Assembly: GCF_009914755.1 (NCBI RefSeq)
Contig: NC_060926.1
Reading direction: 5' to 3' (one strand)
DNA length: 64,000 nt
Source of the DNA: the human T2T-CHM13v2.0 reference genome, Homo sapiens
Numbering within the stretch: position 1 is the stretch's first letter; each line of letters opens with the position of its first letter. Shown piece by piece: positions 6,306-43,318 of this stretch. The translations under genes were made by a program, and so were the position numbers. The notes under the pieces are model-generated. The model saw only the letters and a program-made list of their open reading frames with translations, made no database searches and was not told the DNA's origin.

Positions 6306-6947
6306 AGTTTTATGAAGATGTCACTAAGATGGCAAGTAAACTTGTCTTCAATTTATATGTAATTGAATCTGTTTCTTATTATAGAATCTAAAATCAATTA
6401 TTTATTAACTGCATTTATTGGATTGCTTTGATCCACTTCATAAAAGATATAATGCTAAAGAAATCTCTAAGCTCCTAAACAGCCAAGACTGTGTTTTGCT
6501 AAGAAACCACAGTTCCCTAAACATCATTGAATCCATGGTCCATTTGGATAGAACTTTGCATTTGAAATTGTATTTATTCTATTTACTATCATTGCCCAGT
6601 AAAGACCACATTCTGCTTGAAATTATTATGTTAATCAATATTGTAGATGTTTTCCATCAAATTAAATCCATTTTTGTGTCAGAATTTGAAATTTGTACAT
6701 GAAATCATTTTTCTTCTGTAATTGTAAGAACTGCTTGAGTATCCTCCCTCCCCAGATGGTAGCCTAGAAACCATCTTCTTTGTGTTTGTCTGAGAGTTTG
6801 TCATGGAAATATTATTGATAACATGAATGACTAATAATCATATTCACACATTGTGTCACATGTGTTCAACCTTCATCAACTATTGAAAAATAACCATTTT
6901 CGCTCTTGCTTTATTTGATAAAAGAAATCAAGTTTCGTTTAGAAAAA

Positions 6948-7392
6948 ACAATAGCAAAGACTTGGAACCAACCCAAATGTCCAACAATGACAGACTGGAT
7001 TAAGAAAATGTGGCACATATACACCATGGAATACTATGCAGCCATAAAAAATGAAGAGTTCATGTCGTTTGTAGGGACATGGATGAAGCTGGAAACCATC
7101 ATTCTCAGCAAACTATCGCAAGGACATAAACCCAAACACTGCATGTTCTCACTCATAGGTGGGAATTGAACAATGAGAACACTTGGACACAGGAAGGAGA
7201 GCATCACACACCGGGGCCTGTTGTGGGGTGGGGGGAGGAGGGAAGGATAGCATTAGGAGATATACCTAATGTAAATGACAAGTTAATGGATGCAGCACAC
7301 CAACATGGCACATGTATACATATGTAACAAACCTGTACGTTGTGCACATGTACCCTAAAACTTAAAGTATAATAAAAAAAAGCTGAAAAAAA
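6948..7392 (+). mobile_element. 5'-truncated L1PA (L1PA3/4-like) 3' end: ORF2 C-terminus, 3'UTR and poly(A)
   Basis: ORF 6906-7169 ends TIAKTWNQPKCP...MFSLIGGN*; G-rich 3'UTR; 'taccctaaaacttaaagtataat'; TSD agaaaaaa at 6941-6948 and 7393-7400 after TTT (L1 EN site). Confidence 0.95.
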
Positions 7393-7661
7393 AGAAAAAA
7401 TTCTAACTATAAACAAAGACAATATAAATTTCTATCAATAATCATACTCGATCATAAATGCATTCTATTCATTTTTAGAAGATATTTTCTTTTTTCAAGT
7501 TTCAGATATACAGAGAAATTCAAAAGATAGTAGAGAAGATCCACATATACCCCATCAACCAGTTTCTACTACACCTTAGACTAATATGGTAAACTTGCCA
7601 CAATTAATAAAATAATAATGATACATTATTATTAACTAAAACTCACAGCTTTTACTTATAA

Positions 7662-13157: not shown

Positions 13158-13990
<833 letters not shown>

Positions 13991-14974
13991 GTCTTTGCTA
14001 TTGTCAATAGTGGTGCAATAAACATATGTGTGCATGTATCTTTATAGCAGTATGATTTATAATCCTTTGGGTATATACCCAGTAATGGGATGGCTGGGTC
14101 AAATGGTATTTCTAGTTCTAGATCCTTGAGGAATTGCCACACTGTCTTCCACAATGGTTGAACCAGTTTACAGTCCCACCAACAGTGTAAAAGTGTTCCT
14201 ATTTCTCCACATCCTCTCCAGTACCTGTTGCTTCCTGGTTTTTTAATGATCGCCATTCTAACTGGTGTGAGATGGTATCTCATTGTGGTTTTGATTTGCA
14301 TTTCTCTGATGGCCAGTGATGATGAGCATTTTTTCATGTGTTTTTTTGGCTGCATAAATGTCTTCGTTTGAGAAGTGTCTGTTTATATCCTTCGATATAA
14401 ACTTTTTGATGGTGTTGTTTGTTTTTTTCTTGTAAATTTGTTTGAGTTCTTTGTAGATTCTGGATATTAGCCCTTTGTCAGATGAGTAGATTGCAAAAAT
14501 TTTCTCCCATTCTGTAGGTTGCCTGTTCACTCTGATGATAGTTTCTTTTGCTGTGCAGAAGCTCTTTAGTTTAATTAGATCCCATTTGTCAATTCTGGCT
14601 TTTGTTGCCATTGCTTTTGGTGTTTTAGTCATGAAGTCCTTGCCCATGCCTATGTCCTGAATGGTATTGCCTAGGTTCTCTTCTAGGGTTTTTATGGTTT
14701 TAGGTCTAACATGTAAGTCTTTAATCCATCTTGAATTAATTTTTGTATAAGGTGTAAGGAAGGGATCCAGTTTCAGCTTTCTACATATGGCTAGCCAGTT
14801 TTCCCAGCACCATTTATTAAACAGGGAATTGTTTCCCCATTTCTTGTTTTTGTCAGATTTGTCAAAGATCAGATGGTTGTAGATGTGTGGTATTATTTCT
14901 AAGGGCTCTATTCTGTTCCATTGGTCTGTATCTCTGTTTTGGTGCCAGTACCATGCTGTTTTGGTTACTATAGC
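13991..14974 (-). mobile_element. L1PA (about PA4-PA6) ORF2 segment, inverted 5' part of a twin-primed insertion
   Basis: ORFs 14258-14989 and 13987-14355 translate to L1 ORF2p (TAWYW...IFDK...[19 protein letters not shown]...[13 protein letters not shown]), with a frameshift. Confidence 0.95.
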
Positions 14975-15162
14975 AATCCAAATGTCCATCAGTGTTAGAA
15001 CGGATTAAGAAAATGTGGCACATATACACTATGGAATACTATGCAGCCATAAAAAGGATGAGTTCATGTCCTTTGTAGGGACATGGATGAAGCTGGAAAC
15101 CATCATTCTCAGCAAACTATCGCAGGGACAAAAAACCAAACACCACGTGTTCTCACTCATAG
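14974..15162 (+). mobile_element. L1PA ORF2 C-terminal segment (non-inverted part), ending at CTCACTCATAG with no L1 3'UTR
   Basis: 'aaatgtccatc...gattaagaaaatgtggcacatatacactatggaatactatgcagcc...gttctcactcatag'; the normal continuation gtgggaattga (present at 7159) is absent. Confidence 0.95.
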
Positions 15163-16160
15163 AGCTGCCCTGAGGAGTGACAAAGGGCGTGAATTGAGGA
15201 GGCTTGTGAAGAGGACTTGAACACTGTACCAGCTGTATATCCCTGGCTTCCTCCTGAGAGCTCCTGATGGGATATTCTCCATTATTTCTAAGACCACCTG
15301 GAGTTATTAGTCCCTTGAGGACCCCCATAAGATGCTTTATTATCCTTTCCTTTGCTCCCCGGGTGCCTTAACTCAGATCCTCATTCAGTGTGAGATTGGG
15401 AAAACATGCAAGTGCAGGTCTTGTCTTAGGTAGCAATAAAATGCTATTACTAGATCCCTAAATGTAAATGACACAGGCAACTATTTCTTAACATCAATAA
15501 ATCTAATGTCTGTGTAATCAGAAACCAGAGATCTGAACTCTACCTTTGGGCTAACTCAAAATCTGTATCGTTGCAGTCATTAGAGACCAGTTTTTATTCC
15601 TTGCTTTATTGAAGGGACTGCTGTTGATAGTTTTTAATTTTTAAATAATGAGTTTTTCTTTTTAGATATAAGCCATGAGGCAACTTTAAAAGTTTGTTTC
15701 TGAGGAGGTAAGAGTTGAATTTAAAACAACAAATGAAGCCTTTGCATCACTAGCATTCTTTTCCATGTATATTATCCAAAACTGGAATGTTAGAAATATT
15801 TTTGAAAATATTTTTGTAAAAAATATGTATTTCTAAAAAAAAAAGCATCAATGAGAAAGAAATGAATTTATGTAAAATTTTTTTCAAATAAAAGTGTAAA
15901 AATTTTCACCTAGGGTGCACAAATAAAATAATTGTCTGAGAATATGGTCATTTTCAGTAATATTACACTAATAATTTCTAACTGTATCTCTATGTACGGT
16001 TTAAATTTTTATGAACACGAATTCATTATAGAACAAATTACTGCATTTAAGAGAAACATCAAAAGCTGACTGTTTATTTACTTTTACCAGTTATTCTTCC
16101 TCCATGGAAATTATGCTTCTGAATATAGTGAATAAAACCAGAGGTGATTACACTGAAAAA
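15163..16160 (+). other. Non-L1 transduced cargo (putative captured terminal exon/3'UTR) with AATAAA and short A-tail
   Basis: Lies inside the 15-bp TSD aaattgtttgtctac (13976-13990 and 16161-16175); AATAAA at 16131-16136, A-run from 16156. Confidence 0.8.
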
Positions 16161-16175
16161 AAATTGTTTGTCTAC

Positions 16176-38689: not shown

Positions 38690-43318
<4,629 letters not shown>

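What the first reader, a model, noticed from the sequence alone, without database searches (positions are those of the whole stretch)
13976..16175. Retrocopy of an L1 transcript spliced to a foreign terminal exon (splice-mediated 3' transduction)
Seen: a perfect 15-bp TSD aaattgtttgtctac (13976-13990, preceded by TT, an L1 EN-type site; and 16161-16175) encloses L1PA sequence plus ~1 kb of non-L1 DNA ending in AATAAA, 19 nt, then an A-run. The L1 part stops exactly at ...CTCACTCATAG, where intact L1 continues GTGGGAATTGA (compare 7148-7169 in this window). The L1 3'UTR and poly(A) are missing. Known: ordinary 3' transductions keep the L1 3'UTR and A-tract before the flank, and AG|GTGGGA fits a 5' splice donor. 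Inference: the source L1 RNA was spliced from this site to a downstream host exon, polyadenylated there, and retrotransposed as one unit. That is an exon-shuffling route that repeat annotation would split into unrelated pieces.
Basis: partly seen in the sequence, partly recalled or inferred. Interest (0 to 1): 0.88.

Follow-up and report, generated by a model that had tools for sequence, protein, structure and literature searches.

The report
L1 retrocopy ending in a captured host exon
An old L1 jumping-gene copy on chromosome 2 lost its own tail and instead carries a 1-kb transcript end from chromosome 8, joined exactly where splicing signals sit, which suggests L1 RNA can pick up a host exon by splicing and copy it elsewhere.

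Summary
An exact 15-bp target-site duplication (13976-13990, 16161-16175) encloses one 2.2-kb insertion. Its L1 part ends at ...CTCACTCATAG, which is ORF2p residue 1272 of 1275. About 1 kb of non-L1 DNA follows, ending in AATAAA, 19 nt and a short A run.

13991-14973 is antisense, 14974-15162 is sense, and 7 bp are lost between them, the twin-priming geometry.

The cargo has one parent, chr8:63,889,820-63,890,811 (CHM13), at 95% identity. The parent starts directly after ...ctcactgcag and has no genomic A run after the cleavage site. The L1 breakpoint is the second-best donor-like site of 1601 positions in an intact copy.

The third fails: the 280 kb upstream of the parent holds no same-strand L1 of matching lineage.

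Best reading (about 0.7): a retrocopy of a spliceosome-made L1-to-exon chimeric RNA. Whether splicing was in cis (source L1 lost) or in trans is open. RT template switching remains a rival at about 0.15.

This is a 3' mirror image of the published spliced 5' mRNA/L1 chimeras. It is a single old, non-coding case of moderate interest.

The parts
13976..13990 (.). 5' copy of the 15-bp target-site duplication AAATTGTTTGTCTAC. It is preceded by TT, so the bottom-strand nick site reads ATTT/AA.
   Evidence: exact match to 16161-16175, no extension on either side, and the only two copies in the window.
13991..14973 (-). Inverted (antisense) L1 ORF2 segment, ORF2p about residues 881-1207. This is the twin-primed 5' arm.
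   Evidence: the minus-strand translations match solved LINE-1 ORF2p chains at residues 879-1094 (E 1e-121) and 1087-1207 (E 8e-74); the segment is collinear with contiguous L1 copies only when reverse-complemented.
14974..15162 (+). Sense L1 ORF2 C-terminal segment, ORF2p about 1210-1272 of 1275, ending ...CTCACTCATAG. It starts 7 bp downstream (in L1 coordinates) of where the inverted arm starts.
   Evidence: the plus-strand translation matches ORF2p 1233-1272 and ends in FSLI. TTGGAAC is missing between the arms, and base C at 14974 could belong to either arm.
15162..15163 (+). L1/cargo junction. Intact L1 continues GTGGGA here (TAG|GTGGGA), and the parent is preceded by CAG|.
   Evidence: by donor score this is rank 2 of 1601 positions in an intact L1 3' 1.6 kb; acceptor features.
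15163..16155 (+). 993-bp non-L1 cargo: a retrocopy of a terminal-exon-like segment from chr8:63,889,820-63,890,811 (CHM13, + strand).
   Evidence: only 2 genomic matches, self and chr8 at 95%; 49 mismatches in 990 aligned positions, 5 gap columns, K2P 0.0515.
16131..16136 (+). AATAAA polyadenylation signal, 19 nt before the cleavage site. It is conserved in the parent.
16156..16160 (+). Short A tail: 5 A before the duplication, or 8 A counting the first three bases of the duplication. The parent has no A run here.
16161..16175 (.). 3' copy of the target-site duplication.

Best explanation
This is one L1-mediated insertion made by target-primed reverse transcription, with a twin-priming 5' inversion. 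Its template was a single chimeric polyadenylated RNA.

In that RNA at least 1.18 kb of L1 ORF2 sequence ran up to a GT lying 11 nt before the ORF2 stop. From there it was joined to a roughly 1-kb terminal-exon-like segment from chr8:63.89 Mb, which carries its own AATAAA and cleavage site.

The join was most likely made by the spliceosome, from an L1 5' splice site (TAG|GTGGGA) to a host 3' splice site (CAG|G). This removed the last three ORF2 codons, the L1 3'UTR and the L1 poly(A) signal.

Shown: the insertion hallmarks, the exact break points, the parent locus and its flanks.

Inferred: that splicing made the join, and that the RNA was an L1 transcript.

Unresolved: cis splicing of a read-through transcript from an upstream L1 that was never fixed or was later lost, versus trans-splicing.
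For: 1. One unit. An exact 15-bp duplication brackets the L1 plus the cargo, with an ATTT/AA nick site and a terminal A run.

2. Twin-priming geometry. The antisense arm starts 7 bp upstream (in L1 coordinates) of the start of the sense arm. This is what one continuous RNA spanning L1 and cargo predicts. In a published survey 639 of 2068 species-specific L1 insertions are 5'-inverted (section read).

3. The L1 break is at a donor-like site. Intact copies continue GTGGGA. Using a donor weight matrix with recalled frequencies, the break point ranks 2nd of 1601 positions, 53 of which are followed by GT, in an intact L1 3' 1.6 kb.

4. The cargo has a single parent (2 of 2 genomic matches are self and chr8). 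The homology starts directly after ...ctcactgcag. Only 20 of 2971 nearby positions are at least as acceptor-like by a simple rule: an AG, at least the same pyrimidine fraction, a pyrimidine at -3, and no upstream AG.

5. The predicted spliced junction, CATAG+GGCTGCC, differs from the observed CATAG+AGCTGCC by one substitution.

6. The parent has AATAAA and a T/G-rich downstream stretch but no genomic A run, so the tail was added to RNA.

7. The break leaves ORF2p intact to residue 1272 of 1275, so a full-length chimeric RNA could still encode both L1 proteins.

8. Precedent for the mirror image. Seventeen mRNA/lncRNA-exon-to-L1 5' chimeras have been described. Six end exactly at splice donors, and 15 of the gene loci hold no intronic L1, which led the authors to a trans-splicing model (sections 24 and 32 read).
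Against: - No same-strand L1 of matching lineage lies in the 280 kb upstream of the parent. The best same-strand fragment has 113 mismatches in 1124 aligned positions, against 49 in 990 for the cargo.
- An exact 23-mer carrying the retrocopy's lineage marker (CCACGTG) has 122 genomic hits. All 5 on chr8 were listed. None is on the + strand between 14.9 Mb and the parent. A later mutation in the source would hide it from this exact search.
- The acceptor is only moderate: 59% pyrimidines and no obvious branch point.
- L1 (ctcactcatag) and the parent's upstream flank (ctcactgcag) share ctcact...ag. This hints at homology-guided joining, although such a join predicts a different junction sequence.
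- I could not see any annotation or transcript evidence that the chr8 segment is an exon.
- No outgroup empty site was checked.
- Breaks at this L1 position are not clearly enriched genome-wide. There are 14 sites with the 15-mer followed by three non-L1 bases. A control position 6 nt downstream gives 13 sites, 9 of them sharing one matched sequence. For scale, 11,830 copies carry the exact intact 21-mer.
Confidence: 0.7

Rival explanations
1. Template switching by the L1 reverse transcriptase. Reverse transcription started on the poly(A) tail of a chr8 RNA and copied about 1 kb. It then jumped to an L1 RNA at ...CATAG, with a 2-nt AG microhomology or at the 5' end of the chr8 RNA. The splice-like context would then be coincidental.
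For: - Chimeric retrocopies made by template switching are an established class, for example U6/L1 (introduction passages of the Law & Burns preprint; reference lists).
- AG is shared by both partners at the junction, and ctcact lies just upstream in both.
- No cis source L1 exists within 280 kb.
- The first cargo base differs from the parent.
Against: - It needs two coincidences. The L1 landing point would be the 2nd-best donor-like site of 1601. The chr8 RNA would be left exactly at one of the 20 most acceptor-like of 2971 positions.
- The chr8 RNA would have to be unspliced or to start exactly there.
- A switch guided by the ctcact homology predicts CTCACT+GCAGGG..., not the observed CTCACT+CATAGAG....
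- The twin-priming geometry would require the top-strand primer to have engaged the second (L1) RNA 189 nt from the landing point.
- In the known U6-type chimeras the 5' partner is a complete small RNA and the 3' partner is the L1. Here the order is reversed.
Confidence: 0.15
2. A host (lncRNA-type) transcript rather than an L1 mRNA. A long non-coding transcript ran through an L1 fragment, used the same GT as a donor, spliced to its own terminal exon, and was mobilised in trans as a processed pseudogene. Because of 5' truncation and inversion, the copy happens to retain only the L1-derived exon and the last exon.
For: - The junction evidence is the same as for the main explanation.
- The retrocopy is 5'-truncated and inverted, so the 5' end of the RNA is unknown.
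- A 5'-truncated same-strand L1 fragment does lie 38 kb upstream of the exon, with an even stronger-looking donor (TAA|GTGAGA) at the homologous site.
Against: - That fragment is too divergent to be the template: 89.9% identity against 95% for the cargo, plus a 44-bp gap.
- At least 1.18 kb of uninterrupted L1 ORF2 precedes the donor. That is long for an internal exon and is simplest as the body of an L1 mRNA.
- No other candidate lies within 280 kb.
Confidence: 0.08
3. DNA-level origin. Either an ordinary L1 3' transduction or two adjacent insertions later lost the L1 3'UTR, A-tract and intervening flank by deletion, or the fusion pre-existed in a source locus that is now lost.
For: L1 copies broken at or near this position by other causes do exist: 13 other sites, several of which look like small internal deletions because the sequence after the break, CATAG+AAC, matches L1 again 10 bp further on.
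Against: - The duplication brackets the whole unit, not either part.
- A deletion would have to start exactly at the GT of L1 and end exactly after the AG-preceded base of a sequence whose parent lies on another chromosome.
- No remnant of the L1 3'UTR or of chr8 sequence upstream of the AG is present.
Confidence: 0.04

Closest known systems
L1 3' transduction (read-through of the weak L1 poly(A) signal; Moran 1999, Goodier 2000 and Pickeral 2000, seen only as citations)
   Same: Non-L1 sequence lies 3' of L1 sequence inside one target-site duplication. The unit ends at a downstream host poly(A) signal with an RNA-added tail. It moves host DNA to a new chromosome.
   Different: The L1 3'UTR and its A-tract or poly(A) signal are absent. 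The cargo is not contiguous with any L1 flank found in the assembly. The join sits at splice-site-like sequences on both partners.
Spliced 5' mRNA/lncRNA-L1 chimeric insertions and spliced 5' transductions (Law & Burns 2025 preprint, sections 24 and 32 read; Salvador-Palomeque 2019, passage read)
   Same: A host exon and an L1 are joined exactly at splice sites and retrotransposed with full TPRT hallmarks. The expected cis L1 is usually absent from the host locus (15 of 17 loci), which led to the same cis-lost versus trans-splicing question.
   Different: In those cases the host exon donates the 5' splice site and L1 supplies the acceptor, in its 5'UTR, so the host sequence lies 5' of L1. Here L1 supplies the donor at the end of ORF2 and the host supplies a terminal exon with its poly(A) site, so the host sequence lies 3' and replaces the L1 tail. 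That pipeline looked only at sequence 5' of L1.
SpIREs, spliced integrated retrotransposed elements (Larson 2018; abstract and passages read)
   Same: Retrotransposed copies of spliced L1 RNA. They show that L1 splice sites are used and that the products can integrate.
   Different: In SpIREs both the donor (position 97/98) and the acceptors lie inside L1 (5'UTR or ORF1). Here the donor is at the ORF2 end and the acceptor is outside L1.
SVA exon trapping and 5'-transducing SVA groups (Hancks 2009 and Damert 2009, cited in the review read)
   Same: Retrotransposition of chimeric transcripts made by splicing between a host gene and a retrotransposon.
   Different: The element is different and non-autonomous. 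The host exons are upstream and are spliced into SVA acceptors.
U6/L1-type chimeric retrocopies made by RT template switching (Buzdin 2002, citation only; Law & Burns introduction passage)
   Same: A bipartite retrocopy inside one target-site duplication, built from two different RNAs.
   Different: The 5' partner there is a full-length small RNA and the 3' partner is the L1 3' end. The junctions are not at splice sites.

Membership tests
L1 endonuclease-dependent TPRT insertion | Target-site duplication of about 7-20 bp flanking the whole insert | tested here: met
   Exact 15-bp duplication, the only two copies in the window.
L1 endonuclease-dependent TPRT insertion | T-rich/A nick site (TTTT/AA-like) at the 3' junction | tested here: met
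   The top strand reads ctaTT|AAATTG, so the bottom strand reads ATTT/AA. The consensus is recalled.
L1 endonuclease-dependent TPRT insertion | 3' poly(A) tail not encoded at the source | tested here: met
   The retrocopy has 5-8 A. The parent reads TGATTTTGAC at the same place. The tail is short.
Twin-priming 5' inversion | A 5' arm antisense and a 3' arm sense, adjacent in L1 coordinates, with a small deletion or duplication at the join | tested here: met
   The arms are ORF2p about 881-1207 (antisense) and about 1210-1272 (sense), with 7 bp missing.
Classical L1 3' transduction | Complete L1 3'UTR with its poly(A) signal or A-tract retained before the transduced flank | tested here: not met
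   L1 stops at ORF2p residue 1272 of 1275, and no 3'UTR is present.
Classical L1 3' transduction | Transduced sequence maps immediately 3' of a source L1 | tested here: not met
   The parent is flanked upstream by unique sequence, and there is no matching same-strand L1 in 280 kb.
Retrocopy of a spliced L1-host chimeric RNA | L1 break point is followed by GT in a donor-like context in intact copies | tested here: met
   TAG|GTGGGA, rank 2 of 1601 positions (matrix frequencies recalled). 11,830 genomic copies carry the exact intact 21-mer.
Retrocopy of a spliced L1-host chimeric RNA | Host segment is preceded by an AG acceptor with a pyrimidine tract at the parent locus | tested here: met
   cag|G with C at -3 and no AG in -15..-3, but only 59% pyrimidines. 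20 of 2971 positions are as good.
Retrocopy of a spliced L1-host chimeric RNA | Same-strand source L1 upstream of the exon (cis model) | tested here: not met
   280 kb scanned. The best same-strand fragment is 89.9% identical. There is no + strand chr8 copy with the lineage 23-mer between 14.9 Mb and the parent.
Retrocopy of a spliced L1-host chimeric RNA | Parent segment is a documented exon with this 5' boundary and poly(A) site | not testable with these tools
   No annotation or RNA data for chr8 are available here. Only the poly(A) site use is implied by the retrocopy itself.
SpIRE | Both splice sites lie inside L1 | tested here: not met
   The acceptor partner is unique chr8 sequence.
U6/L1-type template-switch chimera | 5' partner is a complete small RNA and 3' partner is the L1 3' end with its poly(A) | tested here: not met
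   The 5' partner is L1 ORF2 and the 3' partner is a Pol II-type 3' end.

The most novel reading that the evidence does not exclude
The GT that lies 11 nt before the L1 ORF2 stop is a working 5' splice site. It lets a coding-competent L1 mRNA swap its 3'UTR and weak poly(A) signal for a host terminal exon, in cis or by trans-splicing, and still retrotranspose. If so, this case is one of a hidden class of '3' exon-capture' L1 chimeras. That class would mirror the recently described 5' mRNA/L1 chimeras, and repeat annotation would split each member into a 3'-truncated L1 plus unrelated unique DNA. The 13 other sites found would include further members.
Probability: 0.25. Interest if true: 0.7.

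Novelty: new variant of a known kind. Interest (0 to 1): 0.5.

Why it matters
L1 3' transduction is the textbook route by which L1 moves host DNA, but it only carries sequence directly adjacent to the element. A splice from the end of ORF2 into a distant, or even unlinked, exon would let L1 pick up exons from far away while keeping both of its reading frames almost complete. That is the exon-shuffling route long proposed for L1.

Such events are invisible to 3' transduction catalogues, which require the L1 3' end. They were also outside a recent survey that looked only at sequence 5' of L1.

This single example is old (about 5% diverged from its parent), non-coding and in a gene desert. Its value is as a proof of principle and as a search template, not as a functional element.

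Tried and rejected
- Source L1 within 280 kb. I fetched chr8:63,609,821-63,899,820 and ran blastn with both L1 arms. The + strand fragment at 63850112-63852057 is rejected as the source: 113 mismatches in 1124 positions and 56 gap columns, against 49 in 990 for the cargo. The 93.8%-identical L1 at 63868691-63870675 is on the wrong strand, and it is no closer than random copies elsewhere, which reach 94-95%.
- Genome-wide search with the L1 arms. Only 40 of 10,960 and 40 of 2,431 candidates were scored. Many copies reach 94-96% and none is near chr8:63 Mb, so this is uninformative for finding a source.
- Lineage-marker 23-mer. It gave 122 hits, of which 100 were listed, including all 5 on chr8. 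No usable chr8 hit was found. A mutated source would be missed.
- Enrichment of breaks at the donor. There are 14 sites, against 13 at a control position, 9 of those sharing one matched sequence. A stricter pattern gave 5 hits but excluded our own site. No clear enrichment was seen.
- Pfam on the three L1 peptides: 0 families for 3 of 3. Identity was established against solved ORF2p structures instead.
- Literature. Seven full-text searches plus one search found no report of an L1 ORF2-end donor spliced to a host terminal exon and retrotransposed. Belancio 2006 and 2008 and Solyom 2012, which could bear on L1 donors and on processed orphan transductions, are not held, so a precedent there cannot be excluded.
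- A supplement of PMC13221650 lists a sense intra-L1 junction 5421_5806 in L1.3. I could not map that coordinate onto this site.
Full report
**What is there**

AAATTGTTTGTCTAC occurs at 13976-13990 and 16161-16175. The two copies are identical, do not extend on either side, and occur nowhere else on either strand of the window. The 5' copy follows TT, so the bottom-strand nick site reads ATTT/AA, an L1-endonuclease type of site (the consensus is recalled).

Between the two copies lie the following, in order:
- L1 sequence up to 15162, ending CTCACTCATAG;
- 993 bp of non-L1 DNA (15163-16155);
- within it, AATAAA at 16131-16136, followed by 19 nt to the cleavage site;
- then eight A, three of which belong to the duplication.

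The L1 at 7148-7169 in the same window continues GTGGGAATTGA after the same CATAG.

**The L1 part is inverted**

A blastn of the insert against the window shows that 13994-14974 and 14974-15161 match one contiguous older L1 (38943-40115) in opposite orientations.

Translations matched against solved structures give positions in LINE-1 ORF2p (1275 residues):
- the minus strand of 14261-15004 matches residues 879-1094 (E 1e-121);
- the minus strand of 13990-14382 matches residues 1087-1207 (E 8e-74);
- the plus strand of 15009-15170 matches residues 1233-1272 (E 5e-15).

An alignment with three other L1 copies shows how the arms relate. The antisense arm begins, at the 5' duplication, 7 bp (TTGGAAC) upstream in L1 coordinates of where the sense arm begins. 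This is the geometry of a twin-priming 5' inversion. In a published survey, 639 of 2068 species-specific L1 insertions were 5'-inverted (section 8 of PMC2912911 read).

This bears on the question at hand. Both arms are most simply copied from one RNA that ran continuously from at least 1.18 kb of ORF2, through the junction, to the poly(A) tail.

**Where the cargo comes from**

A search of the window's own assembly with 15163-16155 gives 2 matches: the window itself and chr8:63,889,821-63,890,811 on the + strand, at 95% identity. A realignment gives 49 mismatches in 990 aligned positions, 5 gap columns, and a K2P distance of 0.0515. Eleven of the mismatches are in CpG context. At a recalled neutral rate of about 1.2e-9 per site per year, this suggests an age of roughly 20 Myr.

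The flanks of the parent read as follows:
- upstream, ...gtaattattgctcactgcag|GGCTGCC;
- downstream, ...gattacatTG|attttgacttagtg.

The homology therefore starts directly after an AG. The parent has the AATAAA but no genomic A run. The chr8 copy has no target-site duplication and no tail, so it is the parent and chr2 holds the retrocopy.

**Are the break points splice sites?**

*Donor.* I scored every position of an intact L1 3' 1.6 kb (the chr8 minus-strand copy) with a 9-position donor matrix whose frequencies I recalled. The break point TAG|GTGGGA ranks 2nd of 1601 positions, 53 of which are followed by GT.

*Acceptor.* The parent boundary has CAG|G, C at -3 and no other AG in -15..-3, but only 59% pyrimidines in -20..-4. 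By that simple rule, 20 of 2971 neighbouring positions are at least as good, out of 210 AG sites. The acceptor is plausible but not strong.

*Junction.* The junction predicted by splicing, CATAG+GGCTGCC, differs from the observed CATAG+AGCTGCC by one base. That is in line with the 5% overall divergence.

*Coding consequence.* The break removes only the last three ORF2 codons. In the retrocopy the frame reads ...FSLI-ELP-stop. With the parent's present sequence it would read on for 34 further residues. A full-length RNA of this kind could thus still have encoded both L1 proteins; this is inference.

**The failed prediction**

I fetched and scanned the whole 280 kb upstream. This reaches the exon encoding the YTHDF3 YTH domain at chr8:63,612,425. 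The fetches were, and the blastn runs were.

The same-strand L1 ORF2 3' fragments found are:
- 63850112-63852057, a 5'-truncated piece of about 1.95 kb that reads TAA|GTGAGA at the homologous site;
- 63854613-63855810, at 74% identity;
- 63720999-63721398, at 74-78% identity.

The first fragment has 113 mismatches in 1124 positions and 56 gap columns against the retrocopy's L1 (89.9% identity). This is about twice the cargo's divergence, so it is not the template.

A 93.8%-identical L1 at 63868691-63870675 is on the opposite strand. It is no closer than many unrelated copies, which reach 94-95% (40 of 10,960 candidates scored).

An exact 23-mer carrying the retrocopy's CCACGTG variant has 122 genomic hits, which shows that the variant marks a lineage. 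All five chr8 hits were listed, and none is a + strand copy between 14.9 Mb and the parent. A source that mutated later would escape this exact search.

The cis model therefore needs a source L1 that was never fixed or was later lost. The alternative is trans-splicing.

**Rivals**

*Template switching of the L1 reverse transcriptase* from a chr8 RNA to an L1 RNA is the main rival.
- For it: AG is shared at the junction; ctcact lies just upstream in both partners (L1 ctcactcatag, parent ctcactgcag); and no cis L1 exists.
- Against it: the landing site would have to be, by chance, the second-best donor-like site. The leaving site would have to be an acceptor-like AG. The chr8 RNA would have to be unspliced or to start exactly there. 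A ctcact-guided switch predicts a different junction (CTCACT+GCAGGG...).
- I give it about 0.15.

*A host transcript with an exonised L1* gets about 0.08. *A DNA-level deletion or fusion* gets about 0.04. Both fit less well, for the reasons given in their entries.

**Is it a class?**

The 15-mer before the break, followed by three bases that all differ from L1, occurs 14 times in the genome, including here. For comparison, 11,830 copies carry the exact intact 21-mer. A control position 6 nt downstream gives 13 hits, 9 of which share the same matched sequence.

That is no clear enrichment. Several of the 14 look like small internal deletions, because the sequence after the break matches L1 again 10 bp further on. 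Whether more examples exist stays open.

**Comparison with what is known**

- Ordinary 3' transductions keep the L1 3' end and carry the adjacent flank. Both features were tested here and are not met.
- SpIREs are retrocopies of L1 RNA spliced within L1 (PMC5860796; abstract and passages).
- Spliced 5' transductions and 5' mRNA/lncRNA-L1 chimeras are documented. Law & Burns (bioRxiv 10.1101/2025.02.02.635956; sections 24 and 32 read) report 17 of them. Six end exactly at splice donors, and 15 come from loci without an intronic L1, which led those authors to propose trans-splicing. Their pipeline examined only sequence 5' of L1.
- A spliced 5' transduction is also described in PMC6425141 (passage read).

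The present case is the 3' mirror image: L1 gives the donor, and the host gives a terminal exon with its poly(A) site.

Eight full-text searches found no report of such a retrocopy. Belancio 2006 and 2008 and Solyom 2012 are not held and might contain a precedent.

**Verdict**

The insert is a real single TPRT insertion whose template was very probably a splice-made L1-to-exon RNA (0.7). The 'downstream exon of the same locus' part is not shown.

I class it as a new variant of a known kind. It is of moderate interest as a proof of principle and a search template. The insert itself is old, non-coding and sits in a gene desert.

Noticed in passing
window 6943-7409: A 5'-truncated sense L1 3' end with the intact CATAG|GTGGGAATTGA site and an interrupted A-rich tail at about 7376-7400. 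It is 90.5% identical to the sense arm of the insert.
   Followed up: partly
window 38943-40115: An older contiguous minus-strand L1 ORF2 3' segment, 79-82% identical to the insert's L1. At the homologous site it reads ATAA+GTGGGAG, not ATAG+GTGGGA.
   Followed up: partly
L007/L006: chr8:63850112-63852057 (+): A 5'-truncated L1 38 kb upstream of the parent exon and on the same strand. It reads TAA|GTGAGA at the homologous site, which looks like a stronger donor. It is too divergent to be the template, but it could be spliced to the same exon today.
   Followed up: partly
window 15150-15162 and L002 1487-1499: The L1 end (ctcactcatag) and the parent's upstream flank (ctcactgcag) share ctcact...ag. 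The L1 site is both acceptor-like (YAG|G after a CTCAC) and donor-like (AG|GT). This may be coincidence or may be relevant to the joining; it is unexplained.
   Followed up: partly
window 15113-15146: Relative to three other L1 copies, the sense arm shows three A-to-G differences within 9 nt (CGCAGGGAC against CACAAGAAC). The nearby CCACGTG variant is shared by 122 genomic copies and so marks a lineage. Whether the A-to-G cluster is inherited or arose later was not tested.
   Followed up: no
supplement of PMC13221650: A table of intra-L1 splice junctions lists a sense-strand junction 5421_5806 on L1.3. If 5806 is the G of CATAG, the same site is also used as an acceptor. I could not map the coordinate.
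   Followed up: no
genome sites (C10:126791001, C13:9915270, C14:3395533, C14:4948731, C15:5274900, C21:6360239, C21:7077995, C22:6504736, C24:62112991): Nine sites show an L1 broken at the same base after ...GGTGGGA and followed by GCA. They look like one event amplified by duplication.
   Followed up: no
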